In this document: positions 5,498-49,754 of the stretch, in pieces
Layout of the letters: every line of letters starts with the position of its first letter
How positions within the stretch are numbered: position 1 is the first letter of the stretch
From: an uncultured bacterium
GTDB lineage: Bacteria; Fermentibacterota; Fermentibacteria; Fermentibacterales; JCC-6
Direction: 5' to 3'
Length of the DNA stretch: 64,000 bases
Assembly: GCA_965371785.1 (NCBI GenBank)
Contig: CBDUZS010000003.1
Location: forward strand, 8,386 to 72,385
Translations under genes and position numbers: made by a program
Notes under the pieces: generated by a model
Database searches by the model: none
What the model saw: only the letters and a program-made list of their open reading frames with translations
Told to the model about the DNA's origin: nothing

Positions 5498-6181
5498 TCA
5501 GCCTTCCATCTGGAAGAGTGTCTTTATGGCGCCCCACGAATTCCTGTCGAAGGCATCCGTTGCGTAGATGTCGAAGAATGCGTCGGTGAACTCGCCGAAG
5601 GCATCGTATGTGCTCTCCCAGCCGCTGGATCCGTTTTTCCAGTACACCGTCTGCAGCAGTGAGTGATTCTGCACGAGCATGAGAGCATTGACATTGTTCA
5701 CTGCCTGTACTTCCAGCCAGTAATGGATATTTGCAGAAAGCTCGGGATTCAGATCGGGCGGAATACTGCATGAAGTCCTGCAGATATCGTAGCCTGAGAG
5801 AGTGTAACCGGTGGCGTAGTTGATACATGGTGCTGCAGCGCTCCAGATTGTTACTGCAGATGCGGGAGACGAATCTCCGTTGTCCTCCGCGATGGCCAGA
5901 TTTACCTGCTTGCTCGGTGATCCCAGGTAGATCATCCAGATGACTATCTCGCTGATTTCGATGTCATCATCCAGTGTGAAATCGTCAGTGATCCATCTAT
6001 CTTCTCCGGAGTAGTTACTGTAGCAGTCCAGAACATTCTGCGGAACAAATGTCTGTGAGTAAGCAATACCGCTGAGTCTGACGGGGCCGGTTCCGGAGGG
6101 ATGAACGGGACCGAGGTGTGTAATGCCGTCAGCGGGAGTCATGCATACTACCGTCAACAGAATGAGCAGGGATTTTCCCAA
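5498..6181 (-). CDS. secreted protein, divergent member of the tandem paralog family (member 1 of 7)
   Basis: N-terminal signal peptide. Shares the DDFT, GYxxxGYDI and YW blocks and the C-terminal NSWGAIKTLF motif with the six downstream paralogs. TGA stop. The start is assigned to the TTG at 6181 and is uncertain. Confidence 0.65.
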   Translation of the reverse strand: MGKSLLILLTVVCMTPADGITHLGPVHPSGTGPVRLSGIAYSQTFVPQNVLDCYSNYSGEDRWITDDFTLDDDIEISEIVIWMIYLGSPSKQVNLAIAEDNGDSSPASAVTIWSAAAPCINYATGYTLSGYDICRTSCSIPPDLNPELSANIHYWLEVQAVNNVNALMLVQNHSLLQTVYWKNGSSGWESTYDAFGEFTDAFFDIYATDAFDRNSWGAIKTLFQMEG

Positions 6182-6286
6182 GCAGGTACACCTTTCCCGG
6201 GATACATTGAGTAATATTCGATGCTAAACCCGCAACTCCGGCCGGTCAAGAACGGGAAGGGGGAGAAATCACTTGCCGATGATATC

Positions 6287-6958
6287 CTACTGGAACAGGG
6301 TCTTGACCATTCCCCATGTAGTTCGATCGAGGGCGACCGTACCCTCGATGATGTTGAACATGTCGGTGGGAGCATATCCCGTGCTCGCACCTGTCTGCCA
6401 TCCGGTGCCGACGTCTCTGTAACACTCCATGCCTTTAACTTCGTTATCGATCAGGCAGTACATGTTCAGTTCATCGGAGCGAAACGCAGTCATCCAGTAA
6501 GTGGACCCACCGTTGGCCGTGAAGTGATCGGCATTCGGCAGTTCAATTTCGCAGACGTAAATGTCGTAGCCTGCAAAAGTAAGTCCCGTTTCGGTCCAGG
6601 TGACATCTGTTGAGAGCTGCGTCCAGAGAAGCTCTCCGGGACCAGGGTCAGCATCGCTGTAGAAGCCTACTTCCATAGCTGACGGATTCGTGGTGATTGA
6701 AATCGTCCAGAGAGTGATGTACTCGACATCTGCAGTACTGATGGGAGTGAATTCGTCTGCGACACGGTAGTAGTAGCAGATCGGGAAGACAGTGATGTAC
6801 ACATGTGCTGCGTCAAACGGATTGGAGTAGATCACTTCATCCGCCAGTGGAAGCGGGAAGTGAACACCTTCGATATGTTCCTCCCATGCAGAGTCTGCCA
6901 GTGATACTGCAAGTATCATTGCATAAGATACAAACGCCAGTCTCATGATACACTTCAC
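6287..6958 (-). CDS. secreted protein, tandem paralog family (member 2)
   Basis: 223 aa. Signal peptide, then conserved WEEHIEGVHFPLP after the predicted cleavage site. Ends ALDRTTWGMVKTLFQ with a TAG stop. Confidence 0.8.
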   Translation of the reverse strand: MKCIMRLAFVSYAMILAVSLADSAWEEHIEGVHFPLPLADEVIYSNPFDAAHVYITVFPICYYYRVADEFTPISTADVEYITLWTISITTNPSAMEVGFYSDADPGPGELLWTQLSTDVTWTETGLTFAGYDIYVCEIELPNADHFTANGGSTYWMTAFRSDELNMYCLIDNEVKGMECYRDVGTGWQTGASTGYAPTDMFNIIEGTVALDRTTWGMVKTLFQ

Positions 6959-6980
6959 CTTTCATAGCCCTCTCAATGTC

Positions 6981-7652
6981 CTACCGGAACAGCGTCTTGA
7001 CCATTCCCCATGTAGTTCGATCGAGGGCACCGTAGATGGTTCCCCTCACCATCCTGAACATGTCTACGGGGTCGTAACCCGTCGAAGAACCGGGAACCCA
7101 CTCTCCTCCAGCGGTGATGATCCTGTAGGTCTCGTTACCGTTTACCTCATCGTCAAGGATCGCATACAGATTTGAGCCATCCTCTCGATGTGCCGTAATC
7201 CAGTACGTGGTTCCGGTCCAGACGTTCATGTAGTCAAGGTTTGGCAATTCAATGACACAGACGTAGATAGTATATCCCGCGAATGTAACGCCGCTGTCCT
7301 TCCAGATGATGTCGGATGCGAGATGTTGCCAGAGAATGGTACCCGGACCGGGATAACCATCCCCGAAGAAAGTGACCTCCAGACCGGCCGGATTCGTTGT
7401 CGTGGTTATCGTCCAGAAAGTCAGTTGTTCGATCTGCCCGTTAAGGGAGGGTGTGAAATCGTCTGCAATCCAGTAATCGCTGAAATTGGCGTATGCAGTG
7501 CCGTACACGTGATCGGGGTCGTACATATTGGAATCGAAAACGAAATCTGTCCCCGGCATAGGGATATGAACACCCTCGATGTGTCCCTCCCAGTTCGGGC
7601 TGGCAAAAACAGCCGAAGCAAGGAGACTGAGAAAAATGAATGTAAACCTCAT
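6981..7652 (-). CDS. secreted protein, tandem paralog family (member 3)
   Basis: 223 aa. Signal peptide, then WEGHIEGVHIPMP, a GYPGPGTILWQ block, and a C-terminal ALDRTTWGMVKTLFR. An AAAGGA RBS lies 7 nt upstream of the ATG. Confidence 0.85.
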   Translation of the reverse strand: MRFTFIFLSLLASAVFASPNWEGHIEGVHIPMPGTDFVFDSNMYDPDHVYGTAYANFSDYWIADDFTPSLNGQIEQLTFWTITTTTNPAGLEVTFFGDGYPGPGTILWQHLASDIIWKDSGVTFAGYTIYVCVIELPNLDYMNVWTGTTYWITAHREDGSNLYAILDDEVNGNETYRIITAGGEWVPGSSTGYDPVDMFRMVRGTIYGALDRTTWGMVKTLFR

Positions 7653-7774
7653 AATGGTATCCTTTCACTCAGATGATGATTTTCTATACATTTTAGTTAT
7701 TCAAATAATTGAATTCCCTTGTGAACACAAGTGCGAGGTTTAAAATGTGTATCCGGTCAGAATGGAGTAAGCCT

Positions 7775-8440
7775 CTAGAAAAGCGTCTTGAGTGCTCCCC
7801 AGGTATTGCGGTCGAGAGCAATCGTGCCCTCGATAATGCGGAACAGGTCGGTAGGATCGTAGCCGGTTGTAGAGCCAGGAACCCATGGACCACTTGCGGT
7901 AATGATCCTGTAGCATTCGGTTCCAGTAACCTCGTAGTCCATGATCGCGTAGAGACTCGTCCCGTCGTCGCGCTGAAAACCTGTCCAGTAGGTGACTCCC
8001 GGGCTTATGACGAAGTAATCCGTGTTGGGAAGATCCATCTCCGTGATATAAATCGGGTATCCGGCGAAAGTGACGCCGCTGTTGGTGAATACAAGGTCTC
8101 CGCCGGAAATTGATTCCGACCACAGCACCGCTCCTGGCCCCGGAGCGGCATCGTCCAGGAAGTAGACGAGTAAGCTGCTGGGCAAGCCGCCCGTGGTCAG
8201 TGACCAGTACGTCACCTTTTCGACCGTTGCCGTGAATGCCACGGTAAGGTCGTCGGCAACCCAGTAGTCCCCGAAGACGGCAAAGGCGGTCGAGTACATC
8301 GTCCCGCTCAACGGATTCGAGTCGATTATGTCATCGGTTGCAGGCCATGGAGTGATCGTGCCTTCCCAGTGACCTTCAATGCTCGAACTGGCACCAGCGT
8401 AAGCAGTGAGAATGGCGATGAAAACGCAACAAAGTTTCAT
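7775..8440 (-). CDS. secreted protein, tandem paralog family (member 4)
   Basis: 221 aa. Signal peptide, then the same conserved N- and C-terminal blocks, ending ALDRNTWGALKTLF. Confidence 0.8.
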   Translation of the reverse strand: MKLCCVFIAILTAYAGASSSIEGHWEGTITPWPATDDIIDSNPLSGTMYSTAFAVFGDYWVADDLTVAFTATVEKVTYWSLTTGGLPSSLLVYFLDDAAPGPGAVLWSESISGGDLVFTNSGVTFAGYPIYITEMDLPNTDYFVISPGVTYWTGFQRDDGTSLYAIMDYEVTGTECYRIITASGPWVPGSTTGYDPTDLFRIIEGTIALDRNTWGALKTLF

Positions 8441-8471
8441 TTCCGACTCCTTTCAGCATAAGCTGGGCTGG

Positions 8472-9128
8472 TCAGAAAAGTGTCTTGACCATCCCCCATG
8501 TAGCTCTGTCGAGCGTAACAGTGCCCTCGATGATGCGGAACATGTCACTGGGATCGAATCCGAAGTTCGAACCGGGCTGCCAGCCGCTGCCGGTGTCTCT
8601 GTAGCACTCCGTGCCTTCCACTTCGTCGTCTTGTATGCTGTACAGGTTAGAGCCATCGGAGCGGTGAGCGGTCACCCAGTAGGTGGAGCCGCCGTTGACC
8701 GTGAAGTAATCCGCGTTCGGCAGTTCCATCTCGCAGATGTAGATGGTGTAGCCGGCAAAAGTAACACCGCTGTCGGTCCAGATGATATCGGTCGTGAGCT
8801 GTGTCCAGAGAACAACACCCGGGCCGGGAGCGACATCGTTGTAGAAGAAAACTTCGAGTGCAACCGGATTCGTTGTCGTGGAAACCGTCCAGATGGTGAT
8901 GAACTCGACATCGGCCATGTAGTCTGGGGTGAAGTCGTCAGCAATCCAGTTGCTGCTGAAGATTGCGAAGGCAGTTGAGAATACGTGCTCCTCGTCGTAT
9001 GCATTCGTGTCGATGATATCATCCGTCGGAGGAAGTGGAATGTGGACACCTTCGGTATGTCCCTCCCATGTCGAGTCAGCCAGTGATACCGCCACGATTA
9101 CGGCAAGAGATACGAGTACAAGTTTCAT
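8472..9128 (-). CDS. secreted protein, tandem paralog family (member 5)
   Basis: 218 aa. Signal peptide, WEGHTEGVHIPLP, and C-terminal TLDRATWGMVKTLF. Confidence 0.85.
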   Translation of the reverse strand: MKLVLVSLAVIVAVSLADSTWEGHTEGVHIPLPPTDDIIDTNAYDEEHVFSTAFAIFSSNWIADDFTPDYMADVEFITIWTVSTTTNPVALEVFFYNDVAPGPGVVLWTQLTTDIIWTDSGVTFAGYTIYICEMELPNADYFTVNGGSTYWVTAHRSDGSNLYSIQDDEVEGTECYRDTGSGWQPGSNFGFDPSDMFRIIEGTVTLDRATWGMVKTLF

Positions 9129-9160
9129 ACGGCACGCCCCCTCTCAGGGCATTTGACACC

Positions 9161-9826
9161 CTACTGGAAAAGCGTCTTGACCATCCCCCAGGTAGCTCTG
9201 TCGAGAGCAACCGTACCCTCGATGATACGGAACATATCGACAGGATCGTAACCCGTTGAAGAACCGGGAACCCAGTCTCCTCCTCCTGCGAGAATCCTGT
9301 AGCTCTCGCTGCCGCTGACCTCATCGTCGACTATCGCGTACAGGTTTTCGCCATCCTCTCGATGTGCTGTGACCCAGTACGTTGTCCCCGCCCAGATATT
9401 CGGATAGTCCAGGTTCGGCAGATCTATGAAACAGATGTAGATAGGATAACCTGCGAACGTAACACCGCTGTTCGCCCAGATGATGTCGGATACCAGGTTC
9501 TGCCAGAGAATGGTTCCCGGACCGGGGTATCCGTCTCCGTAGATGGTGGCTTCAAGACCTGTTGGATTGGTTGTCGTGGATACGGTCCAGAAAGTCAGCA
9601 CAGTGATCTGTCCGCTGTAGGAGGGTGTAAAATCGTCGGCAATCCAGTAGTTGCCGAAGTTGCCGAATGCATTGCTGTACACGTGGGCAGGATCGTACGC
9701 ATTGGTGTCGAAGACAAAATCTGTCTCGGGCAAGGGAATATGAACACCCTCGACATGCCCCTCCCAGACCGGTCTGGCAACGACAATAGAAATGATGATG
9801 CTCAGAAAAATGAATGCAAACTTCAT
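9161..9826 (-). CDS. secreted protein, tandem paralog family (member 6)
   Basis: 221 aa. Closest paralog of member 3. Signal peptide, WEGHVEGVHIPLP, and C-terminal ALDRATWGMVKTLFQ. Confidence 0.85.
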   Translation of the reverse strand: MKFAFIFLSIIISIVVARPVWEGHVEGVHIPLPETDFVFDTNAYDPAHVYSNAFGNFGNYWIADDFTPSYSGQITVLTFWTVSTTTNPTGLEATIYGDGYPGPGTILWQNLVSDIIWANSGVTFAGYPIYICFIDLPNLDYPNIWAGTTYWVTAHREDGENLYAIVDDEVSGSESYRILAGGGDWVPGSSTGYDPVDMFRIIEGTVALDRATWGMVKTLFQ

Positions 9827-9954
9827 GGACGTATCCCTTCGATAACGAGTTTTCGCATTTACAGGATTTTGATAATCGAATTTGCCTGTGTGCGCAAGTG
9901 TGAAGGTCGTCAGGGCTATTTCGTTCCCGAAGAGAATCGAAAATCTTTCCTGCT

Positions 9955-10003
9955 AAAAAAAACACCTGCCCAGAAAAAGGGGAAGGACTCGAAGTCCTTC
10001 CCC
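9955..10003 (-). terminator. rho-independent terminator downstream of paralog 7
   Basis: Perfect 10-bp stem GGGGAAGGAC / GTCCTTCCCC with a 5-nt loop at 9979-10003. On the minus strand it is followed by TTTTT and then a T8 run (9955-9978). It lies 22 nt past the stop of the 10026-10703 gene. Confidence 0.7.
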
Positions 10004-10025
10004 TGAATCGTCGGATGACGCTTCT

Positions 10026-10703
10026 CTAGAAGAGGGTCTTGATAGTACCCCAGGTGTCGCGGTCGAGTGCAAGCGTACCTTCGATGATGCGGAACATGTC
10101 GGTAGCGGGGTATCCCGTTGTTGAACCGGGTACCCATCCGCTACCTATGTCTCTGTAGCTCTCCGTGCCTTCCACTTCGTCGTCTTGTATGCAGTAGAGG
10201 TTGGTGCCGTCAGTACGCTGGAAGGTAGTCCAGTAGGTTACACCGGATGTGGCCATGAAGTAATCGGTGTTGGGAAGGGCGGCTACCGTCATGTAAATCA
10301 TGTATCCAGCAAAGGTAATACCAGTGGCGTTGTGTACGAGGTCGCCACCACTGACGGTACCGTTCCAGAGTTCGGTTCCTGGACCGGGAGGTGCATCTTC
10401 CCAGAAGTAAGCGTCGACGGAAGTAGGCATTGCTCCCGTGCTGAGATCCCAGAGCGTGAGGATCTCGATGCTGTAATCATTAGAAGGTGTGAAGTCGTCT
10501 GCTACCCAGTAATCGGTGAAGATGGCAAACGCGGTGTTGAACGCATGCGCAGCATCGTAAGCGTTCGTGTCTACTATATCATCGGTGCCCGGCAGCGGAT
10601 TAGGCATGCCCTCGAACTCGCCCCTCATGGTCGAGCTGGCAAACGACATTGCGACGACGACAAGAAGAACAACAAGCAGCTTCATACTACACTTCCTTTC
10701 CAA
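10026..10703 (-). CDS. secreted protein, tandem paralog family (member 7)
   Basis: 225 aa. Signal peptide, conserved blocks, and C-terminal ALDRDTWGTIKTLF. Followed on the minus strand by a rho-independent terminator. Confidence 0.8.
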   Translation of the reverse strand: MERKCSMKLLVVLLVVVAMSFASSTMRGEFEGMPNPLPGTDDIVDTNAYDAAHAFNTAFAIFTDYWVADDFTPSNDYSIEILTLWDLSTGAMPTSVDAYFWEDAPPGPGTELWNGTVSGGDLVHNATGITFAGYMIYMTVAALPNTDYFMATSGVTYWTTFQRTDGTNLYCIQDDEVEGTESYRDIGSGWVPGSTTGYPATDMFRIIEGTLALDRDTWGTIKTLF

Positions 10704-10837: not shown

Positions 10838-10914
10838 GGGCGATTAGCTCAGTTGGCTAGAGTGCTTGCTTGACATGCAAGAAGTCACTGGTTCAAATCC
10901 AGTATCGCCCACCA
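10838..10914 (+). tRNA. tRNA-Val (anticodon GAC)
   Basis: Hand-folded cloverleaf. 7-bp acceptor stem GGGCGAT/ATCGCCC. D-arm GCTC...GAGT. Anticodon stem CTTGC/GCAAG around loop TTGACAT, giving anticodon GAC. T-arm ACTGG-TTCAAAT-CCAGT. Discriminator A and an encoded CCA. Confidence 0.85.
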
Positions 10915-10947: not shown

Positions 10948-12891
10948 ATGCAATTGTTACGTATAGTATTTCCAGACAACAGTTCTGCCGAATTCGAGCC
11001 GGGCACGACCGGAATGGACATTGCTCTGTCGATCGCGCGAGGACTGGCAAAAAGGGCTCTTGCCTGCCGCTTCAACGGTGAATTGACAGGTCTCTCGGAG
11101 CCTCTGCAGGATGACGGGAAGATAGAAATACTCACCTTTTCCGATGATGAAGGAAAGAAAATCCTGCGCCATAGCGCTGCCCATGTAATGGCTGCTGCAG
11201 TGGAAAAGCTATTCCCGGGAACCAGGTTCGGTATCGGACCCGCCATCGACAACGGTTTCTACTACGATATGAGTATTCCCGACTTTCCGGGAAATTCCGC
11301 ACTCGACTCGATTGCCGCCGAGATGAGCAGGCAGATTGCAGACGATCTTCCATTCATCACCGGGAAAATGAACATCGATGAGGCCGCAGACCTGTTCTCA
11401 TCGAGGGGAGAGAGCTACAAGCTCGAACTCCTCGATGACCTGCGGCGTGAAGGTGTAGAGAGTGTCAGTATCTACTCTCATGGAGACTTCGTGGATCTCT
11501 GCCGTGGTCCTCATGTACCTTCAACAGGGTTTCTGAAGCATTTCAGGCTTCTCAGTGTAGCGGGGGCTTACTGGAGGGGTGACGAGAAGAACGAAATGCT
11601 GACCAGGATATATGGCACGGTCTTCGATTCATCCGCGAACCTGACCGATCACCTGGAGATGCTTGACGAGGCTCGAAAGAGGGATCACAGAAAACTCGGC
11701 CCCGAACTGGAGCTGTTCTCGATAGGTCCCGGCGGTCCGGGTCTCATCTACTGGCTGCCAAGGGGAACGGTTCTGAGAGAAGAGCTGGAGAACCACTGGA
11801 AGAAAGCTCACAGAGCAGCGGGCTACGAACTCGTCAACACTCCGCATATCGCACCGGTCGATCTCTGGGAGACCTCCTGTCATTGCTCCTACTACCGCTA
11901 GAGCATGTACTTCATGGACGTCGATAACCGCGAGTACGTCCTCAAACCGATGAACTGTCCCGGACACATCATCATCTACCAATCGAAAAAACGCTCTTAC
12001 CGGGAGCTTCCACTCAGGCTGGCCGAGCTCGGGATGGTCTACAGGTACGAAAAGAGCGGTGTTCTGCACGGTCTGATGAGAGTACGCGGATTCACCGTTG
12101 ACGACGGCCACATCTTCTGCACGGAGGATCAGATAGTAAGCGAGATCCAGGATGTCGTCAGGTTTGCTCTCTACTTTCTCAGGATATTCGATTTCGGGTA
12201 CGAGATCGAATTGTCCCTCATGGATCCTGAAAACCCCGGGCACTACGCCGGTAATCCCGATGAATGGAAACTGGTCGAACCTGCTCTTGCAAGAGCACTC
12301 GACGATATGGGAGAGCCCTACCGTACCGTCATCGGGGAAGCAGCATTCTACGGTCCAAAGATCGATATCAAGCTGAAGGACGCACTCGGAAGATTCTGGC
12401 AGGGACCGACGATACAATTCGATTTCAACATACCTTCCCGTTTCAACCTGACTTACGTCGGCAACGATGGATCCGAGCATCGGGTGTACATGGTACATCG
12501 TGCTCTTTTAGGCTCGGTGGAAAGGTTCATAGGCAATCTGATCGAACACTACGCCGGCAATTTCCCGAGTTGGCTTGCGCCCGTTCAGGTTGTTATATTA
12601 CCAGTTACCTCCTCACAGGTTGAGGGGGCAGAGGGAATTGCGGCTGAACTGACTGAAGCCGGTCTGCGAGTTGAAACTGATTCTCGCAACGAGACGGTTG
12701 GCTATAGGGTAAGGTCTGCTGAAAAAATGAAGGTTCCGTTCATGCTCGTCATCGGCGAGCGTGAAATGACATCAGGCAGTGTAGCCCTGCGGAAGCATGG
12801 AGAGGGTGACAAGGGAGTGTTTCCATTTGCGGAAGCTCTCGACTTTCTCATCAACGACTGTGAAACGCCTGCATTGCCGGAATGGGGGTAG
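10948..12891 (+). CDS. thrS: threonyl-tRNA synthetase, interrupted by a single in-frame TAG at 11899-11901 (both halves share one frame)
   Basis: N-terminal TGS domain and the second additional domain with the HxxxH motif (RHSAAHVMA). Class II core with NCPGH and DDGHIFC, and a C-terminal anticodon-binding domain. The ORF track splits it into 10948-11901 and 11905-12891, but these are in one frame separated only by a TAG at the position aligned to a conserved Asp/Glu. A GGAGG RBS precedes the ATG. The gene ends in TAG immediately before the infC TTG start. Confidence 0.8.
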
Positions 12892-13434: not shown

Positions 13435-13626
13435 ATGCCCAAAATGAAAACACACAAGGGTGCGGCAAAGCGCCTGAAGAAGACCGGGTCAGGAAAGTTC
13501 AGACTCAGGCATTCTCACGCGGGTCACATCAAGACGAAGAAGAGCAGTAAACGAAAGCGCGGCCTGCGCAAATCCGGAATCGCATCACGAGCCGACGTGC
13601 GTAGGCTACGTCGAATGCTGCCCTGA
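13435..13626 (+). CDS. rpmI: 50S ribosomal protein L35
   Basis: 63 aa, very basic, begins [13 protein letters not shown]. Positioned between infC and rplT. Confidence 0.9.
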
Positions 13627-13642
13627 ACCTGGAGATTACAGC

Positions 13643-13996
13643 ATGAGCAGAACAAGAAATGCAGTTGCGCGCAGAAAGCGCCACAAGAAGGTTCTCAAAG
13701 CCGCCAGAGGTAAGGTTGGCGGCAGGAGGAAGCTCTACACCGTTGCATGCGAAGCCAACAGAAAGGCTCTCGAGTACCAGTACAGAGACCGCAGGACGAA
13801 GAAACGGGACTTCAGATCTCTCTGGATCACCAGGATAAATGCAGCTTCCAGGGAGAATGGACTGTCGTACAGCGACCTCATCAATGGCCTTGCCAGAGCA
13901 GGAATCAAGCTGAACAGGAAGGTCCTTGCCAGTCTTGCAGTGGGAGATCCCGATGCCTTCACAAGTATAGTCGAGACAGCGAAAGCTGCTTTGTAG
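13643..13996 (+). CDS. rplT: 50S ribosomal protein L20
   Basis: 117 aa, begins [23 protein letters not shown], a typical L20 N-terminus. Confidence 0.9.
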
Positions 13997-14026
13997 CGTT
14001 ACCGGGAAGGACATCGAGTCAGGAGC

Positions 14027-14293
14027 ATGTCTGTTGCTGACAATCTGGAGAGGTTGACTGAAGCTGTCGATCGTCTGATTATCAGACTGGAGACACTTCA
14101 GGCTCAGCGCAACAAGCTGACTCGAAGGGTCCAGGAGCTTGAGTACAGAATAGACAACAGTGTTGATTCTCCGGATTCTGAGGGTTATAACCTTCTCAGG
14201 ATCCACAGCGCCAGACTTCTGCGGGAAAGGCAGGATCTGAAGCAGAGGTTAACGGGGGTTCTGGAAAAAATGGAAAGAGAATTGCGGCGGTAA
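14027..14293 (+). CDS. small coiled-coil protein (ZapB-like?), function unassigned
   Basis: 88 aa, charged heptad-rich sequence immediately upstream of zapA. The association with zapA suggests a division-ring accessory coiled-coil protein. This is inference only. Confidence 0.5.
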   Translation: MSVADNLERLTEAVDRLIIRLETLQAQRNKLTRRVQELEYRIDNSVDSPDSEGYNLLRIHSARLLRERQDLKQRLTGVLEKMERELRR

Positions 14294-44155: not shown

Positions 44156-47100
44156 GTGCGAGTTTCGTGCTTTTTCCTGCTGTTCTGTCTTCTGTTGACT
44201 GTGCAGGCCGAGGTGCCTTCCTACCTCGTCTCCTGCAGCGAGGAAGAGTTTCAGTACATGAACAGTCACTGGCAGGAAGAGATCGAGATCGAATGCACCG
44301 TTGTCAGGGAAGACACGGTTTACACCGGCTGCCTGATGCGGATACGCGGAGACAGCTCTCGTGGTTTTCCGAAGAAATCCTACCGCATCACTTTTTCGAT
44401 AACCGATCCACTGGATGGAAGATCCAGATGGAACTTCAATGCGGAATATCTCGATGAATCCTACATGCATACCTGGCTCTTTGCCAGGGTACTGGACGAA
44501 CTCGATTATCCCTGTTTCGATGTCGAATACGGAATGCTCTACGTCAACGACAACTACCGCGGACTCTACGTCAGATGTGAGCCGGTCGACGAGCAGTTCC
44601 TCCTGGAAAACGCTCTGGACCCGGATGGCAATCTCTACAAGGCTGCCGTCGATGGCTCCTGTCTCAGCATCTGGGACAACGTCACGGAAGTCTGGGAAAA
44701 ACGAACCAACGAGGGTCAGGGGTGGAACGACCTCTTCGAGCTGATCGCGGACATCGAGAGTTCACCGCCGGACAGCGTACTGGATCTCGTCTCGAACAGA
44801 TTCCACCTGAACGATCTGCTCACGATCTCGGCAGTCAACCTTCTCACAAGCAACACGAGCACGTACTACCACAATTATTTTCTTCACCACGACATCTGGG
44901 GATCGAACAGATGGACAATGCTTCCCTGGGATGTAGACAAGACTTTCTGGAGTACCGGCTGGCCGTACTACTTTCCGAACAACCAGCACTGGCACGACAA
45001 CCCTCTCCACAGGAAGCTCATGCTCGATCCGTTCTATCTCGAGATGCTCTTTGCGAGGATGAACGCAATCTGCGAGTCAGTGCTCAACGGCACCTTCGTC
45101 GATCCACTGCTGGATTCCCTTCAGGTCGAACTCTCAGCGGCCGTCGATGCGGATACGCTCGATAATACCGATCTCGCCGGTTTTCTTGCCTCATCAGACT
45201 CCATCGGCAGCTGGTTCATTCCGGGCAGGATGGCAGCACTCCAGTACGAGTACGACCATACATGTCGTCCATTTTCGGCAAACAGGGGGGATTCCTCAGG
45301 GGTAGCGGGTTACTCCGCATCCTGGGCAACGGCTTACGATCCCGACGGCGACCCCGTTACCTACAAGGTAACCGTGTCCACCGCACTCTGGGATCCCGAT
45401 TCGATTGTTGCCGTCTACGAGGATCTCACCGACACCTGTCTCACGATAACCGGGCTCGAACCCGGCAGCTACATCTGGAAGGTACAGGTCGAGCAGGGAT
45501 GGAGAATCATCGAAGCCTACGATCGCTGCAATCGGTTCGAGATATCTGAAGGAACACCTCTGTCCGGTGTGCTGCAGGGAACCACATACCTGACCTTTGA
45601 CGATTCACCATATCTCGTTACCGGGGATATCACCGTTCCCTCCGGCTCCGCTCTATTCATAGAGGCAGGTGTCGAACTTCGTTTCTCGGCAGGAACCAGG
45701 CTCACATGCAACGGCTCCATGCAGACCACGGGCAATTCACAGGACTCCGTGAGATTCTGTTCGGATATCCAATCGGAGTCATGGGCAGGGATGCTGCTCA
45801 GTGGAGGTCCGAAATCGCTCTTCGAGTACGCGGTGTTCTCTGGAACGACAGGATACGGAGAGCTGCCGCAGCACCAGGCAGGTTTATGTGTGCTGAACAA
45901 CGATATCGACCTCCTGAACTGTTCTTTCAGAGATAACCTGAATTGCGTAAAGGTCATAGACGGAAACGTCACCATAAGGTATTGCGATTTCTCGGGTGGG
46001 AATTCGGGTGAGCTCTTCATCATAGGAGACGGAAGGGGAGCTCTCATCGAGGATTCAAGCTTCGGTAATCTCATCGATCCTCCGAGTGACGTATTCGATG
46101 CCGTCGAGTTCGTGAACTGCACCGATGGTGATTTCATCGTCCGGCGGTGCCATATCTGGAACATCTACGGTGACGGAATAGATTCGAATGGAAGTGACAT
46201 ATCCTGTTCCGATAACATCGTACACGACATTCTGGACAAGGGGATATCCCTGGGAACATGGACGGGAGGGATGGGGATTCCGTTCGAGGCCGAGCTTACC
46301 GGCAACATCATCTATTCCTGCTCGACCGGGATCGCGGTCAAGGACGGTATCGTTGCCCTGCTGGACCGCACGACCGTCTCGATGTGCGGGACTGGAATCA
46401 GTCTCTACGAGAAGACGCCCGGATACGGCGGCGGGTATGCAGAAGTCGTCAATTCCATATTCTGGGACAACGACACGACCGCCCTGGTCGATCCCTTTTC
46501 GACTCTGTACATCGACTACACCCTTACGGGAAGCGAGGAGCCCTGGCCGGGAACGGGGAACATCGCAGCCGATCCCGTCTTCCTGGACCAGCTCGATGGG
46601 GATTTCCACCTGAGATTCGATTCCCCATGCATCGATGCCGGTATTCCAGGAGACCTGGACCCTGACGGAACAAGGGCAGATATGGGGGCAATCTTCTTCC
46701 CACAGGTGTTCGATCAGCTCTTCATCAACGAGCTGCAGGCATCGAACCTGACCACGATAGCCGATGCCTGGGGAGATTATGGAGACTGGCTGGAAATACA
46801 CAACAGCGCCCGCTGGGACGCTGATCTCAGCTGGGTCTACCTCTCAGATGATCCATCCGAACCTGACATGTGGAGATTCCCCAGCGGTACCCTCGTTCCC
46901 GCAAACGGATTCCTGCTCGTCTGGGCAGATGATGACTACTGGAAAGCGGGGCTTCACCTTCCATGGAGACTTGCAGCATCGGGAGACAGCATCTACCTGT
47001 CCGTGGCGGTAGCGGAAAACGGGCGAACGATAGTTTCACGGATCGATGAAATCGAGTTCGGGAGCATGCCTCCCGACAGTTCCTTCGGCAGAATACCCGA

Positions 47101-47461
47101 CGGCGGCTCCGAATGGCGTTTATTCGTAACCCCTACACCGGGATACTCAAACGGAGGAGTCGGCCCCTCTCCAGGATTTCTTGCCGCGGGTTACCCGTTT
47201 CCCAATCCATGTTTCGGAAGTGTTCTGGCTCTCGATCTCGAGATCGACCAGGGATGGACGACCGTTTCTGTGTACGATCTCTCGGGAAGGCTCATACGGA
47301 TTCTTGACAATCGAATGATGGTTTCCGGGCTGCACAGGATCTGGTGGGATCTTCTGACCGCCGACGGAATCAGGGTGCCGGATGGTGTCTACCTGATCCT
47401 TTCCGAACATGCGGGAGCGATTCCCGTGGCCAGGAAAGTAGTTGTCCTTCAACAGCAGTAG
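44156..47461 (+). CDS. large secreted protein: CotH-kinase-like domain, FN3, parallel beta-helix repeats, lamin-tail domain, T9SS-type C-terminal sorting domain
   Basis: Signal peptide, then a CotH-like block (FPKKSYRITF...YLDESYMHTWLFARVL...YVNDNYRGLYV). Right-handed beta-helix repeats (NosD/pectate-lyase-like). LTD block (DWLEIHNSA...VYLSDD...LVWADDD). C-terminus VSVYDLSGRLIRIL...GVYLIL, typical of por-secretion tails. Confidence 0.8.
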   Translation: MRVSCFFLLFCLLLTVQAEVPSYLVSCSEEEFQYMNSHWQEEIEIECTVVREDTVYTGCLMRIRGDSSRGFPKKSYRITFSITDPLDGRSRWNFNAEYLDESYMHTWLFARVLDELDYPCFDVEYGMLYVNDNYRGLYVRCEPVDEQFLLENALDPDGNLYKAAVDGSCLSIWDNVTEVWEKRTNEGQGWNDLFELIADIESSPPDSVLDLVSNRFHLNDLLTISAVNLLTSNTSTYYHNYFLHHDIWGSNRWTMLPWDVDKTFWSTGWPYYFPNNQHWHDNPLHRKLMLDPFYLEMLFARMNAICESVLNGTFVDPLLDSLQVELSAAVDADTLDNTDLAGFLASSDSIGSWFIPGRMAALQYEYDHTCRPFSANRGDSSGVAGYSASWATAYDPDGDPVTYKVTVSTALWDPDSIVAVYEDLTDTCLTITGLEPGSYIWKVQVEQGWRIIEAYDRCNRFEISEGTPLSGVLQGTTYLTFDDSPYLVTGDITVPSGSALFIEAGVELRFSAGTRLTCNGSMQTTGNSQDSVRFCSDIQSESWAGMLLSGGPKSLFEYAVFSGTTGYGELPQHQAGLCVLNNDIDLLNCSFRDNLNCVKVIDGNVTIRYCDFSGGNSGELFIIGDGRGALIEDSSFGNLIDPPSDVFDAVEFVNCTDGDFIVRRCHIWNIYGDGIDSNGSDISCSDNIVHDILDKGISLGTWTGGMGIPFEAELTGNIIYSCSTGIAVKDGIVALLDRTTVSMCGTGISLYEKTPGYGGGYAEVVNSIFWDNDTTALVDPFSTLYIDYTLTGSEEPWPGTGNIAADPVFLDQLDGDFHLRFDSPCIDAGIPGDLDPDGTRADMGAIFFPQVFDQLFINELQASNLTTIADAWGDYGDWLEIHNSARWDADLSWVYLSDDPSEPDMWRFPSGTLVPANGFLLVWADDDYWKAGLHLPWRLAASGDSIYLSVAVAENGRTIVSRIDEIEFGSMPPDSSFGRIPDGGSEWRLFVTPTPGYSNGGVGPSPGFLAAGYPFPNPCFGSVLALDLEIDQGWTTVSVYDLSGRLIRILDNRMMVSGLHRIWWDLLTADGIRVPDGVYLILSEHAGAIPVARKVVVLQQQ

Positions 47462-47492: not shown

Positions 47493-49754
47493 ATGTCCAT
47501 CACACGAGAAGAAGCACTGGAATACCATACGACTGGTAAACCCGGGAAAATCGAAGTCGTTTCCACGAAGAGGTGCATAACCCAGCGTGATCTCTCCATG
47601 GCGTACACCCCCGGAGTAGCCGAGCCGTGCAGAGAAATCGAGAAGAATCCCTCGGATATATACAAGTACACGGCAAAGGGAAATCTCGTAGCGGTCGTGT
47701 CGAACGGTACTGCTGTCCTCGGTCTGGGTGATATAGGCGCAGGCGCAGGCAAGCCCGTCATGGAGGGCAAGGGTGTACTGTTCAAACGGTTTGCGGATAT
47801 CGATGTCTTCGACCTCGAACTCGACACGAAGGACCCGGCTGAGATCATACGCACGGTAGAACTGCTCGAGCCCACTTTCGGCGGGATCAACCTCGAGGAT
47901 ATCGCCTCACCAGATTGCTTCATCATCGAGGATGAGCTGAAGAAGAGAATGAATATTCCAGTATTCCATGATGATCAGCATGGCACGGCGATCATATCCG
48001 GAGCCGCCTTGCTGAACGCCCTCGAAATAAACGGTAAGAACATCGAAGACATCAGGCTCGTCATCAGCGGAGCGGGAGCTTCGGCTATCGCGTGCACTAA
48101 GTACTACATCAGCCTCGGTGTCCTGCCCGAGAACGTCCTCATGTGCGACAGCAAGGGAGTGATATACAAGGGCCGCAAGAAGGGGATGAACGAATACAAG
48201 GAGCAGTTCGCGGTGGAAACCGAGCGAAGGACTCTTGCCGATGCGATGAAAGGTGCCGATGTGTTCCTGGGTCTCTCCGTTGCCGGGCTGGTATCCAAGG
48301 ACATGGTTCGCTCGATGGCATCGGACCCGATCGTTTTTGCGATGGCCAACCCGGACCCGGAGATAAGCTACAGCGATGCAAAGGCTGCCAGAGAAGACGT
48401 GATAATGGCTACCGGAAGATCCGACACTCCCAACCAGGTCAACAACGTTCTCGGTTTTCCCTTCATCTTCAGGGGCGCGCTCGATGTCCGGGCAACCGTC
48501 ATCAACGAGGAGATGAAGCATGCCGCAACGACGGCTCTCGCAGAGCTGGCAAAGGAGGATGTCCCCGATGCCGTATGCAAGGCATACGGTGTCGAAAGGC
48601 TCTCCTTCGGCCGCGAGTACCTCATTCCCAAGCCATTCGATCACAGGGTGCTGCTCCGGGAAGCGACCGCAGTTGCCAGAGCGGCCATGGAAACGGGAGT
48701 CGCCGGAATCCAGCTCGACCTGGACCAGTACGTTCGGGATCTCGAGGCAAGGCTGGGCAAGAGCCGCAGTGTCATGCGCGAGGTGATCTCGAAAGCGAAA
48801 ATGCATCCGAAGAAAATTGCCTTTCCCGAGGGAGAGGAGGACTGCATCCTCAGGGCATGCTCGATCATTCTGGAGGAAGGTATCGCTACCCCGATCCTGC
48901 TGGGCAGAGCTGAATTCATCAGGAAACGTATCGATGAACTCGGTCTGAACCTCGAGGGGGCAGAGATAATCAACCCGTCGGAATCACCACTCCTCGAGGA
49001 GTATTCTCTGGAGTACTACAGGCTCAGACAGAGAAAGGGAAGAACTCTCGAACACTGCCGCGAGCTGATGAGAACGGGGCGTGTTTACGCTCCCATGATG
49101 GTTCACATGGATGACGCCGACAGTGAGCTCGGCGGTGTCAGCCTGCACTACGCGGAGATGGTCCGCCCGGCGATCAGGGTCATCGGCATCGATGATGAAA
49201 TCGCTACCCTTACGGGAATGCACATGCTTGTTTTCTCGGACAGGGTATTTTTCTTTGCGGATACCACTGTGAACATCGATCCTTCTGCGGAAGAACTTGC
49301 TTCAATAGCAAGGATAACTGCTCAGTACGTCCGCGGACTGGGGTTCGAACCGAGAATAGCAATGCTCTCGTTTTCCGATTTCGGAAGTGCAAAGCATGAG
49401 AAGAGCCTTCGGGTAAAAAGGGCAACCGAGATAGTCAAACGGCTCGAGCCTGACCTGATGGTCGATGGAGAGATGCAGGCCGATACGGCTGTCCTGCCCG
49501 ATATTATCAGCACTACTTACCCCTTCTCGTCACTCAAGGGGGGTGCCAACGTGCTGATATTCCCCGATCTACAGTCGGCGAATATAGCATACAAGCTCTG
49601 CTCCAGACTTGGGAAGGCAGATGCAATCGGTCCGATTCTCATGGGTCTCCGGAAATCCGCTCACGTCCTCTCTCACGGTTGCGAAGTGGATGATGTAGTG
49701 AACATGGCCGCGATAGCCGTTGCGGAAATATCGGAGAAGTCCAAGATCGATTAA
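47493..49754 (+). CDS. maeB: NADP-dependent malic enzyme with C-terminal phosphotransacetylase-like domain
   Basis: 753 aa. Malic-enzyme N-terminal and NAD(P)-binding domains (AYTPGVA, GAGAAG-type) plus the PTA-like C-terminal half typical of MaeB. GGAGG RBS. Confidence 0.9.

What the first reader, a model, noticed from the sequence alone, without database searches (positions are those of the whole stretch)
5498..10703. Head-to-tail array of seven diversified paralogs encoding ~220-aa secreted proteins, of a family I cannot place
Seven consecutive minus-strand genes occupy 5.3 kb between arcC and tRNA-Val.

All seven proteins have a signal peptide. The mature N-terminus is conserved (W-E-G-H-x-E-G-V-H-I-P-L-P-x-T-D) and so is the extreme C-terminus (G-T-[IVL]-[AT]-L-D-R-x-T-W-G-x-[VI]-K-T-L-F). 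Internal blocks (ADDFTP, PGPG-x-LW, GVTFAGY-x-IY, TYW, DDEV-x-G-x-E-x-YR) are separated by highly variable stretches. By eye, pairwise identity ranges from low (member 1) to high (members 3 and 6); this is not computed.

I do not recognise the family and cannot map the ends to known sorting signals. This genome's T9SS tail is visible on the CotH protein and looks different, and I see no LPXTG, PEP-CTERM or OMP-type signature.

Members 3 and 6 are each preceded by an AT-rich upstream region carrying a related TGTG-n-C-n-CAAGTG-n-GAGG element, and member 7 by its own terminator, which suggests the members are transcribed individually rather than as one operon. Conserved termini around a hypervariable core are consistent with a diversifying surface/secreted repertoire. 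A novel C-terminal sorting tag is a further speculative possibility.

This is the strongest candidate in the window for an undescribed system.
Basis: seen in the sequence. Interest (0 to 1): 0.8.

Follow-up and report, generated by a model that had tools for sequence, protein, structure and literature searches.

The report
Secreted lectin-like paralogs sharing a C-terminal tag
Seven neighbouring genes in an uncultured Fermentibacteria genome encode secreted sugar-binding-type proteins that all end in the same 13-residue tag; the same tag ends many unrelated secreted proteins in other uncultured bacteria, so it is probably an undescribed address label for the cell envelope.

Summary
Seven minus-strand genes (5498-10703) encode 218-227 aa proteins with Sec-type signal peptides. 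They arose by duplication of a three-gene block, plus one divergent copy. A near-identical strain has eight copies at the same site.

The interesting part is the tail: [LVI]-[ED]-x-x-[ST]-W-G-x-[IV]-K-x-x-F-COOH. The Lys is present in 151 of 152 proteins, and the tail ends 0-1 residue before the stop in 139 of 152. It also follows a Big_5 domain, a choice-of-anchor E domain, LTD and F5/8-C domains, and about 19 unrelated secreted protein bodies in metagenomes.

The tail meets five of Haft's seven criteria for a small C-terminal sorting signal. It has no transmembrane helix and no Arg cluster. No Pfam, NCBIfam, PDB or literature match to the tail was found.

My best reading is a modular envelope-targeting or docking tag on a strain-variable set of glycan-binding surface proteins. 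The partner and the final location are unknown.

The parts
10026..10703 (-). Member 7 (W7). The likely true start is the ATG at 10685, giving 219 aa. Signal peptide MKLLVVLLVVVAMSFA|SS.
   Evidence: ORF. An SD-like GGAAAGGAAG lies upstream of ATG 10685. The ortholog J1 in L001 is 93% identical.
9978..10004 (-). Intrinsic-terminator-like hairpin (12-bp stem, 7 GC pairs, then a T-run) after member 7.
   Evidence: the sequence is visible.
9161..9826 (-). Member 6 (W6), 221 aa.
   Evidence: 74% identical to W3; 96% to ortholog J2.
8472..9128 (-). Member 5 (W5), 218 aa. This is the protein whose structure was modelled.
   Evidence: AlphaFold2 gave pLDDT 92.2 and pTM 0.85: a beta-sandwich over residues 20-204 and a tail at 208-217 at lower confidence.
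7775..8440 (-). Member 4 (W4), 221 aa. It is duplicated in the near-strain L001 (J4 and J5).
6981..7652 (-). Member 3 (W3), 223 aa.
6287..6958 (-). Member 2 (W2). The likely true start is the ATG at 6946.
5498..6181 (-). Member 1 (W1), 227 aa, TTG start. It is the divergent copy (21-28% identical to the others) and gives the best, still sub-threshold, hit to choice_anch_R.
10029..10070 (-). Tail-coding segment of W7: ALDRDTWGTIKTLF, then stop.
9164..9208 (-). Tail-coding segment of W6: ALDRATWGMVKTLFQ, then stop.
8475..8516 (-). Tail-coding segment of W5: TLDRATWGMVKTLF, then stop.
7778..7819 (-). Tail-coding segment of W4: ALDRNTWGALKTLF, then stop.
6984..7028 (-). Tail-coding segment of W3: ALDRTTWGMVKTLFR, then stop.
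6290..6334 (-). Tail-coding segment of W2: ALDRTTWGMVKTLFQ, then stop.
5501..5554 (-). Tail-coding segment of W1: AFDRNSWGAIKTLFQMEG, then stop. It has an atypical 4-residue extension after the Phe.
6293..7666 (-). Duplicated block (W2 + W3 + the start of the W3 upstream region). It is 74% identical in DNA to 8475-9840 (W5 + W6 + upstream). Together with 7773-8164 ~ 10024-10409 (W4 ~ W7), this shows that the three-gene unit [W7 W6 W5] was duplicated to give [W4 W3 W2].
   Evidence: Self-BLAST; reciprocal best paralog pairs 7-4, 6-3 and 5-2; upstream alignment.

Best explanation
The seven genes encode Sec-exported proteins of about 200 aa. Each is a single lectin-like jelly-roll beta-sandwich, a distant relative of the 'choice-of-anchor R' domain. 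Each is followed by a short modular C-terminal tag with the consensus A-[LVI]-[ED]-[RP]-x-[ST]-W-G-x-[IV]-K-[ATS]-L-F-COOH.

Proposed mechanism:
1. Sec export and signal peptidase I cleavage. This is inferred from the signal peptides.
2. The beta-sandwich folds in the envelope. The fold is shown by a confident model.
3. A conserved envelope partner recognises the exposed tag sequence-specifically and retains or routes the protein to the cell surface. The partner is not identified; it could be a receptor, a docking protein or a processing enzyme. The tag would play the role that PEP-CTERM or the T9SS CTD plays for homologous domains in other lineages. This step is inferred from modularity, terminal position and anchor substitution.

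The array itself is a strain-variable set of glycan-binding or adhesive surface proteins. It was built by duplication of a three-gene block. It diverges between strains faster than the flanking genes while staying under purifying selection.
For: Fold:
- AlphaFold2 on a 101-sequence alignment gave pLDDT 92.2 and pTM 0.85.

Domain kinship:
- NF041539 choice_anch_R scores below threshold: 18.9 bits for W1 and 15.2 bits for W5.
- The family profile matches P0106 residues 939-1074 at E = 2e-8. That same segment hits NF041539 at 44 bits, above its cut-off of 30.

Anchor substitution:
- Distant relatives of the core end in PEP-CTERM (11 proteins by inspection of their C-termini; confirmed by TIGR02595 for the two scanned, P0121 and P0133).
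- Others end in T9SS CTDs (8 proteins; confirmed for P0089 and P0106) or in dockerin-like tails.

The tag is separable from the body:
- It follows a Big_5 domain in P0074, P0077, P0081 and P0082.
- In one Zixibacteria locus, two secreted proteins (zA, zB) that are unrelated to the family member P0150 and to each other share only the last ~16 residues with it.
- A metagenome scan for the tag's DNA pattern gave 80 loci. 23 ORFs carry the core domain. 44 ORFs of >=100 aa lack it and fall into 20 clusters, 19 of them genuine, most with signal peptides.
- Among these are a full choice-of-anchor E domain (E = 7e-40), an LTD and an F5/8 type C domain.

Positional constraint and conservation:
- Lys is present in 151/152 tails, W in 124/152 and G in 127/152. 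The tail ends 0 or 1 residue before the stop in 139/152.
- Within the array the tail is the most conserved segment, at 0.36 versus about 1.0 bits.

Sorting-signal criteria: five of Haft's seven attributes are met.

Strain variation: 7 versus 8 copies at the same locus. Orthologs are 80-96% identical in protein while IleS is 97.9% identical. dS is 0.40-0.48 for W2-W4 against 0.09 for ileS.
Against: - No partner or machinery was found. The neighbourhood survey gave only a recurrent PpiD/SurA-like gene and a few TPR proteins, which is not decisive.
- The tag has no transmembrane helix and no basic cluster, unlike every established small C-terminal sorting signal. Its function as a sorting signal is inference by analogy.
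- There is no localisation, cleavage or expression data.
- Glycan binding is inferred from the fold class only; identity to any characterised lectin or CBM is about 10%.
- No model coordinates were available, so I could not see whether the tail packs onto the domain.
- Gene-wide dN/dS below 1 does not show diversifying selection.
- The elevated dS could reflect recombination among alleles or paralogs and need not reflect selection.
Confidence: 0.55

Rival explanations
1. The tag is a self-sufficient membrane anchor. A short C-terminal amphipathic helix lies in the plane of a membrane leaflet, as in E. coli PBP5/PBP6 or MinD, and tethers the exported proteins without dedicated machinery.
For: AlphaFold predicts residues 208-217 as a helix with pLDDT about 72-80. 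The tail is rich in W, I, L and F, with one invariant Lys that could snorkel. For the window's own tails, extended by the preceding Arg, the helical moment exceeds the strand moment (0.47-0.50 versus 0.25-0.32).
Against: Across 143 tails the helical hydrophobic moment is 0.27, the same as shuffled controls (0.27, with 47% of shuffles at or above it), and lower than the strand-periodicity moment of 0.34. Residue-specific conservation (W-G-x-I-K, Lys in 151/152) and a fixed distance to the carboxyl end are more than a physicochemical anchor needs. The L-type variant (SLGKVKALF) has a helical moment of 0.18.
Confidence: 0.17
2. The tag is a C-terminal ligand for a periplasmic PDZ-domain or chaperone protein (Prc/Ctp, DegP/Q-type, or a SurA/PpiD-like chaperone). 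It would then act in folding, quality control or regulated proteolysis, with no role in surface sorting.
For: The fixed distance to the free carboxylate and the terminal aromatic residue (F, Y or W in 125/152) resemble PDZ ligands. Position -2 is T or S in 41% of tails, which fits a class-I-like S/T-x-Phi motif. A PpiD/SurA-like gene (weak Rotamase_2 match) lies directly beside tag-bearing genes of different body types in 10 metagenome loci, and a Rotamase_2 gene lies beside P0150 in Zixibacteria.
Against: About a quarter of tails carry an extra R, K, Q or H after the aromatic residue, and W1 carries four extra residues. This fits poorly with strict carboxylate recognition. The 10 loci may come from related organisms and so reflect shared synteny. 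No such gene lies near the array in the window. A degradation tag on dozens of stable-looking lectin-like or adhesin-like domains has no obvious rationale. Replacement of PEP-CTERM and T9SS anchors points to anchoring.
Confidence: 0.13
3. The tail is just the conserved last structural element of one protein family. It is shared by descent, has no addressing role, and the array is an ordinary family of secreted hypothetical proteins.
For: Within the window every tail sits on the same domain. The family's deep alignment keeps the tail.
Against: The tail follows unrelated domains: Big_5, choice-of-anchor E, LTD, F5/8-C, beta-propeller-like bodies and others. Core-domain relatives exist without it, carrying PEP-CTERM or T9SS tails in its place. 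In the model it lies outside the confident sandwich.
Confidence: 0.05
4. The tail is an outer-membrane-protein beta-signal and the proteins are BAM substrates.
For: The terminal residue is aromatic, mostly Phe.
Against: The model is a soluble beta-sandwich and shows no barrel. The canonical pattern, recalled from the literature, is polar-x-G-x-x-hydrophobic-x-hydrophobic-COOH, and it does not fit. Gly is at -6 where -5 is expected. Position -2 is A, T or S where a hydrophobic or aromatic residue is expected. An invariant Lys sits at -3.
Confidence: 0.03

Closest known systems
Small C-terminal protein-sorting signals (LPXTG/sortase, PEP-CTERM/exosortase, GlyGly-CTERM/rhombosortase, MYXO-CTERM/myxosortase), as defined by Haft (bioRxiv 10.1101/2023.06.07.544157)
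   Same: The tag lies at the extreme C-terminus and occurs several times per genome. It has at least three near-invariant signature residues. Its carriers have N-terminal signal peptides, and it is shared by proteins with no other similarity. It occupies the position that PEP-CTERM occupies on homologous 'choice-of-anchor' domains.
   Different: It has no transmembrane helix and no Arg/Lys cluster, and is only about 13 residues long. It therefore cannot be a substrate of an intramembrane sortase-type enzyme in the same way. No cognate enzyme is known.
NCBIfam NF041539 'choice-of-anchor R' domain (and Pfam DUF7901, PF25470)
   Same: The body of the seven proteins is a distant relative of this domain, shown by sub-threshold direct hits and a transitive link through P0106. 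Like other choice-of-anchor domains, its relatives carry alternative C-terminal anchors.
   Different: Scores are below the curated cut-offs (15-19 bits against 30). The window proteins form a distinct subfamily whose anchor is none of the catalogued ones.
T9SS C-terminal domain (TIGR04183 / PF18962)
   Same: It is a C-terminal export and anchoring signal used by the same group of bacteria. It is present in the same genome (CotH protein, 44156-47461) and on distant relatives of the core domain.
   Different: The T9SS CTD is a folded Ig-like domain of 70-100 residues. The tag has 13 residues and no sequence similarity to it. Both coexist in one genome, so the tag is a separate label.
Short C-terminal peptides that dock to a receptor: peroxisomal PTS1 with the PEX5 TPR domain, and the secretin S-domain with its pilotin (from general knowledge)
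   Same: A short peptide at the very C-terminus, with a fixed register to the carboxyl end, is recognised by a protein partner and decides localisation. This is the kind of mechanism proposed here.
   Different: There is no homology, these systems work in different compartments and organisms, and no receptor has been identified here.
Lectin-like or receptor-binding jelly-roll modules (Cwp84 lectin-like domain 4ci7; phage phi812 and Bxb1 gp29 baseplate/tail-spike domains; PHR domains; CBM6/32/35)
   Different: Sequence identity is 5-15%. The ligand is unknown. Here the domain is free-standing, where the known examples are parts of larger proteins.

Membership tests
Tripartite small C-terminal sorting signals (Haft criteria, 10.1101/2023.06.07.544157) | [quoted passage not shown] | tested here: met
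   The tail ends 0-1 residue before the stop in 139/152 proteins. In 1.6 M ORF residues of fetched loci, all 19 C-terminal matches lie in tag-bearing loci and the 12 internal matches are at chance level.
Tripartite small C-terminal sorting signals (Haft criteria, 10.1101/2023.06.07.544157) | 2. Multiple occurrences in one genome | tested here: met
   7 in the window, 8 in L001, and 3 within 6 kb in Zixibacteria locus L087.
Tripartite small C-terminal sorting signals (Haft criteria, 10.1101/2023.06.07.544157) | 3. [quoted passage not shown] | tested here: met
   [ST] 152/152 (required by the search pattern), W 124/152, G 127/152, I/V 145/152, K 151/152.
Tripartite small C-terminal sorting signals (Haft criteria, 10.1101/2023.06.07.544157) | 4. 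Hydrophobic stretch long enough for a transmembrane helix | tested here: not met
   Only 8 residues follow the [ST], among them an invariant Lys.
Tripartite small C-terminal sorting signals (Haft criteria, 10.1101/2023.06.07.544157) | 5. Cluster of 2-5 basic residues at the end | tested here: not met
   There is at most one R or K after the terminal aromatic residue, in about a sixth of the tails.
Tripartite small C-terminal sorting signals (Haft criteria, 10.1101/2023.06.07.544157) | 6. N-terminal signal peptides on most carriers | tested here: met
   By inspection of the seven window proteins and of most metagenome carriers. No SignalP-type tool was available.
Tripartite small C-terminal sorting signals (Haft criteria, 10.1101/2023.06.07.544157) | 7. 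Carriers include many pairs with no other sequence similarity | tested here: met
   19 genuine unrelated body clusters; pairs such as zA/zB/zC; Big_5, LTD, F5/8-C and choice-of-anchor E bodies.
Tripartite small C-terminal sorting signals (Haft criteria, 10.1101/2023.06.07.544157) | A cognate processing enzyme that co-occurs across genomes | not testable with these tools
   This needs whole-genome phylogenetic profiling. Only flanks of up to 10 kb were available, and the neighbour survey was inconclusive.
NCBIfam NF041539 choice-of-anchor R domain | Score at or above the curated cut-off (30 bits) | tested here: not met
   W1 18.9 bits, W5 15.2 bits, other members no hit. A transitive link exists through P0106.
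NCBIfam NF041539 choice-of-anchor R domain | Homologous domain found with alternative C-terminal anchors | tested here: met
   PEP-CTERM, T9SS CTD and dockerin-like tails occur on relatives of the core.
T9SS type A C-terminal domain (TIGR04183 / PF18962) | Folded CTD of about 70-100 aa that matches the model | tested here: not met
   None of the seven proteins hits it. The same libraries detect it on P0089 and P0106, and the CotH protein's tail looks different.
Outer-membrane-protein beta-signal | Beta-barrel body and a C-terminal polar-x-G-x-x-hydrophobic-x-hydrophobic pattern | tested here: not met
   The model is a soluble sandwich. The register of the Gly and the -2 residue do not fit. The pattern itself is recalled from the literature.
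Galactose-binding-like / lectin-like jelly-roll fold | Structural similarity to solved members | tested here: met
Galactose-binding-like / lectin-like jelly-roll fold | Carbohydrate binding | not testable with these tools
   Needs glycan arrays or binding assays.

The most novel reading that the evidence does not exclude
The 13-residue tail ([ED]-x-x-[ST]-W-G-x-[IV]-K-x-x-F-COOH) is the address label of an undescribed cell-envelope sorting or anchoring pathway. The pathway would operate in Fermentibacteria, Zixibacteria and other uncultured diderm lineages. It would be distinct from the T9SS and from all sortase/exosortase-type systems, would work without a transmembrane segment, and would have a dedicated receptor or enzyme still to be found.
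Probability: 0.4. Interest if true: 0.85.

Novelty: new variant of a known kind. Interest (0 to 1): 0.68.

Why it matters
Every small C-terminal sorting signal described so far shares one design: a motif, a transmembrane helix and a basic cluster. Each of those discoveries pointed to a new sorting enzyme. A widespread modular tag that lacks the last two elements implies a different recognition mechanism.

The lineages involved are known only from metagenomes: Fermentibacteria, common in anaerobic digesters and sediments, Zixibacteria and others. Their surface biology is essentially unknown.

The tag offers three practical gains:
- It is a simple handle, a 15-column HMM, for listing the probable surface or secreted proteome of these organisms.
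- It can be used to search for the partner by phylogenetic profiling.
- It allows dozens of 'hypothetical protein' families to be annotated.

The array itself is a compact example of a strain-variable surface-lectin set, with 7 versus 8 copies and 4-5-fold higher synonymous divergence (dS) in W2-W4 than in the flanking ileS.

Tried and rejected
- Pfam and NCBIfam on all seven proteins gave no hit above threshold.
- The first word-index protein search found only 7 close relatives. The exhaustive profile search was needed to see the family.
- The first AlphaFold run, on member 1 with 7 sequences, was unusable at pLDDT 49.
- A GTDB genome scan with the tail's peptide pattern found no relative. 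The nine closest Fermentibacteria genomes have no family member within 10 kb of ileS.
- The afdb50 fold library was unavailable.
- A tail-only search of the 5.8-billion-protein database was not possible. The E-value cap is 10 and the minimum query is 40 aa, and the padded query gave 17 candidates and no hit. I used a metagenome DNA-pattern scan in its place.
- PDB has no chain with the tail at its C-terminus, only internal chance matches at E > 1, and no sequence relative of the family.
- Literature searches for the motif and for novel sorting signals in these phyla found nothing relevant.
- The amphipathic-helix anchor idea failed the hydrophobic-moment test, with a moment equal to shuffled controls.
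- OMP beta-signal was rejected on pattern and fold.
- 'Hypervariable core under diversifying selection' was rejected: dN/dS is 0.09-0.41 and variability is spread evenly over strands and loops.
- A Pfam survey of 112 neighbouring genes for a partner gave TPR proteins (7) and T9SS cargo (5-6), with nothing decisive.
- A prophage or phage origin, suggested by the phage structural matches, was rejected. The array is flanked by ileS-lspA-arcC and tRNA-Val-thrS and is syntenic in two strains.

Full report
OBSERVATION

They lie between an AA_kinase (arcC-like) gene that ends at 5497 and tRNA-Val(GAC) at 10838-10914, which is followed by thrS. I call them W1 to W7, with W1 next to arcC.

- The seven align end to end.
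- Identity is 21-28% for W1 against the rest and 46-74% among W2-W7. W3 and W6 are the closest pair at 74%.
- Each starts with M-K/R, a hydrophobic stretch of 12-15 residues and a small-x-small site (for example SLA|DS, VFA|SP, SFA|SS). None has a credible lipobox. These are signal peptidase I-type signal peptides by inspection.
- W7 and W2 probably start at internal ATGs (10685 and 6946), each preceded by a GAAAGG-type Shine-Dalgarno motif. All seven genes have such a motif.
- A strong terminator-like hairpin follows W7 at 10004-9978.
- Gaps of 22-32 bp (W6-W5, W5-W4, W3-W2) and of 105-199 bp (W7-W6, W4-W3, W2-W1) suggest three or four transcription units, not seven.

ORGANISM AND LOCUS HISTORY

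IleS from the window is 63-71% identical to IleS of Candidatus Fermentibacteria, Aegiribacteria and Hyd24-12 MAGs, and at most 48% identical to anything else in GTDB. The window therefore comes from an uncultured Fermentibacteria-lineage bacterium. The CotH protein at 44156-47461 has an ordinary T9SS-type C-terminal domain.

A JGI metagenome contig (L001) is a near-strain, with IleS 97.9% identical. It carries eight copies between thrS and arcC.
- The order is colinear with one-to-one orthologs: W7-J1 93%, W6-J2 96%, W5-J3 91%, W3-J6 86%, W2-J7 85%, W1-J8 95%.
- W4 is represented twice (J4 82%, J5 80%) through an extra 696 bp.

Self-comparison of the array shows 6293-7666 matching 8475-9840 at 74% over 1378 bp, and 7773-8164 matching 10024-10409. 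Together with the reciprocal best pairs 7-4, 6-3 and 5-2, this means a three-gene unit was duplicated in tandem, with W1 as an older, divergent member. It also explains the 'related upstream elements' of W3 and W6.

Between the two strains the array diverges faster than its flanks:
- dS is 0.40-0.48 for W2-W4 and 0.10-0.20 for the other members, against 0.09 for ileS and 0.16 for lspA.
- dN/dS is 0.09-0.41 throughout.

Selection is therefore purifying overall. The excess synonymous divergence fits recombination or old alleles better than simple positive selection.

The nine closest GTDB Fermentibacteria have no family member within 10 kb of ileS.

WHAT THE BODY IS

Pfam finds nothing. NCBIfam gives only sub-threshold hits to NF041539 'choice-of-anchor R': W1 at 18.9 bits and W5 at 15.2 bits, against a cut-off of 30.

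The word-index search saw only seven close relatives. An exhaustive profile search of 1.84 billion representatives found 189 clusters at E <= 1e-3, of which 84 were at E <= 1e-10. Most are 190-245 aa and match through to the last residue.

A 101-sequence alignment (A3) gave a confident AlphaFold model of W5 (pLDDT 92.2, pTM 0.85). It shows a beta-sandwich over residues 20-204 at pLDDT 95-98, followed by residues 208-217 predicted as a helix at pLDDT about 72-80.

Foldseek agrees. There is no sequence-level PDB relative.

The body is thus an ordinary lectin-like jelly roll. Its link to choice-of-anchor R is supported transitively. The family profile hits P0106 residues 939-1074 at E = 2e-8, and that same segment scores 44 bits on NF041539. 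DUF7901 (PF25470) is a second borderline relative.

More distant relatives of the core carry PEP-CTERM tails (11 proteins by inspection of their C-termini). TIGR02595 confirmed this for the two I scanned, P0121 and P0133. Others carry T9SS CTDs (8 proteins, confirmed for P0089 and P0106) or dockerin-like ends. This is the behaviour that defines a 'choice-of-anchor' domain.

WHAT THE TAIL IS

Across 152 proteins the C-terminus reads A-[LVI]-[ED]-[RP]-x-[TS]-[W, rarely L/F]-[G, rarely A]-x-[I, less often V]-K-[ATS]-[L and others]-[F, less often Y]. Lys is present in 151/152. The stop follows 0 residues after the aromatic residue in 99 proteins and 1 residue after it in 40.

Within W2-W7 and their orthologs the tail is by far the most conserved segment (0.36 bits entropy, 71% invariant columns). 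The core is at about 1.0 bits, and the mature N-terminus (1.08 bits, 0% invariant) is not special.

Four results show that the tail is a separable module.

(i) In P0074, P0077, P0081 and P0082 a Big_5 Ig-like domain sits between the core and the tail.

(ii) In a Zixibacteria genome (L087), the family member P0150 and two other secreted proteins within 6 kb share only their last ~16 residues...PTSLGKIKSLYK and ...PASLGRVKALYR. These two proteins, zA and zB, have no detectable similarity to P0150 or to each other elsewhere.

(iii) A scan of 241 million metagenome records used the back-translated pattern [DE]-x-x-[ST]-W-G-x-I-K-x-L-F-stop. It returned 91 stretches, of which 80 were read as loci. 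About six of these are chance matches (very short or junk ORFs).
- 23 ORFs carry the core domain.
- 44 ORFs of >=100 aa do not. They fall into 20 clusters, 19 of them genuine and mutually unrelated, most with signal peptides.
- The largest are a beta-propeller-like family of 280-300 aa (10 loci) and a Cys-rich family of about 195 aa (9 loci).

(iv) Among these carriers are a full-length choice-of-anchor E domain (NF033208, E = 7e-40) with the tail directly after it, a Lamin-tail domain protein and an F5/8 type C protein.

In 1.6 million ORF residues of fetched loci, all 19 C-terminal matches to the motif are in tag-bearing loci, and the 12 internal matches are at chance level.

No Pfam or NCBIfam model hits the tail on any of the 27 carriers scanned. 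The same scans readily detect the 24-residue PEP-CTERM model on non-carrier relatives. No PDB chain ends in the tail. Full-text searches for the motif found nothing relevant.

HOW IT PROBABLY WORKS

Haft lists seven attributes of small C-terminal sorting signals (bioRxiv 10.1101/2023.06.07.544157).
- The tail meets five: C-terminal position, several copies per genome, at least three near-invariant residues, signal peptides on carriers, and unrelated carriers.
- It fails two: there is no transmembrane helix and no basic cluster.

It therefore cannot be handled like LPXTG, PEP-CTERM or GlyGly-CTERM signals, which intramembrane or membrane-anchored enzymes cleave next to a membrane-spanning segment.

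I tested the obvious physical alternative, an in-plane amphipathic helix. The mean helical hydrophobic moment of 143 tails is 0.27, identical to shuffled tails and lower than the strand-periodicity moment of 0.34. AlphaFold's helix is of only moderate confidence. An OMP beta-signal does not fit the register or the soluble fold.

Residue-specific conservation across phyla and the fixed register to the carboxyl end point to recognition by a protein partner. My best reading (0.55) has four steps:
1. Sec export (inferred from the signal peptides).
2. Folding of the lectin-like domain (fold shown by the model).
3. Sequence-specific capture of the exposed C-terminal tag by a conserved envelope component (inferred).
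4. Retention or routing of the protein to the cell surface, functionally replacing the PEP-CTERM or T9SS anchors used by homologous domains elsewhere (inferred).

The mechanism would work like PTS1-PEX5 or secretin S-domain-pilotin docking, without being related to either.

I could not identify the partner. A PpiD/SurA-like gene with a weak Rotamase_2 match lies directly beside tag-bearing genes of two different body types in 10 metagenome loci. A Rotamase_2 gene and a TPR gene flank P0150 in Zixibacteria. However, those loci may come from related organisms, no such gene is near the array here, and a Pfam survey of 112 neighbours showed only TPR proteins (7) and T9SS cargo (5-6).

The rivals are a self-anchoring helix (0.17), a PDZ or chaperone ligand for folding or proteolysis (0.13), 'just a family feature' (0.05) and an OMP beta-signal (0.03).

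NOVELTY AND VERDICT

It is a modular tag found on many unrelated secreted proteins of uncultured bacteria, with no model in current Pfam or NCBIfam and no literature that I could find.

I rate it a new variant of a known kind (C-terminal addressing signals), with interest 0.68. Function as a sorting signal, the partner, the final location and sugar binding all remain inferences.

Noticed in passing
window 11902-11904 (thrS, 10948-12891 +): thrS is split by an in-frame TAG (…CHCSYYR*SMYF…) where the near-strain L001 has GAG (…GHCSYYRENMYF…). ThrS is essential, so this is probably an assembly or sequencing error or a minor allele, not a true pseudogene.
   Followed up: partly
L083, L104, L112, L114, L119, L126, L128, L142, L150, L158 (metagenome loci); L087 7828-9645: A PpiD/SurA-like protein of about 450-590 aa (weak Rotamase_2 match) is encoded directly beside tag-bearing genes of two different body types (beta-propeller-like and the core family), in several orientations. 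In Zixibacteria a Rotamase_2 gene lies just upstream of P0150 and a 729-aa TPR gene just downstream. It is a candidate chaperone or receptor for the tag, or simply shared synteny.
   Followed up: partly
L087 13539-14357 (-) and 14550-15476 (-): Two Zixibacteria secreted proteins of unknown family (272 and 308 aa, no Pfam hit) carry an L-type variant of the tag (P-[AT]-S-L-G-[KR]-[IV]-K-[AS]-L-Y-[KR]). The tag therefore has at least two lineage-specific forms, W-G and L-G.
   Followed up: partly
window 5497/5498: The arcC-like gene (+) ends at 5497 and the stop codon of W1 (-) occupies 5498-5500. The two convergent genes abut with no spacer and no recognisable terminator between them.
   Followed up: no
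window 49796-52117 (+): One ORF fuses a cyclic-nucleotide-binding domain, a full acetate kinase and a PTAC phosphate propanoyltransferase domain. It lies next to a malic-enzyme/PTA fusion at 47493-49754.
   Followed up: no
window 44156-47461 (+): A protein of 1101 aa combines a CotH kinase domain, a Lamin-tail domain and a T9SS-type C-terminal domain. It shows that the T9SS label and the new tag coexist in one genome. An LTD protein in a metagenome (L092) carries the new tag in place of a T9SS CTD.
   Followed up: partly
L117 261-2045 (-): One tag-bearing gene of the Cys-rich 195-aa family lies immediately downstream of, and in the same open frame as, an integrase/transposase-like ORF (judged by eye; not scanned against any family library). 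This hints that some carriers sit next to mobile elements.
   Followed up: no
window 13529-14206 (-): A 225-aa ORF, similar in size to the family members, has no Pfam hit. It lacks the tag and does not match the family profile, so it is not an eighth member.
   Followed up: partly
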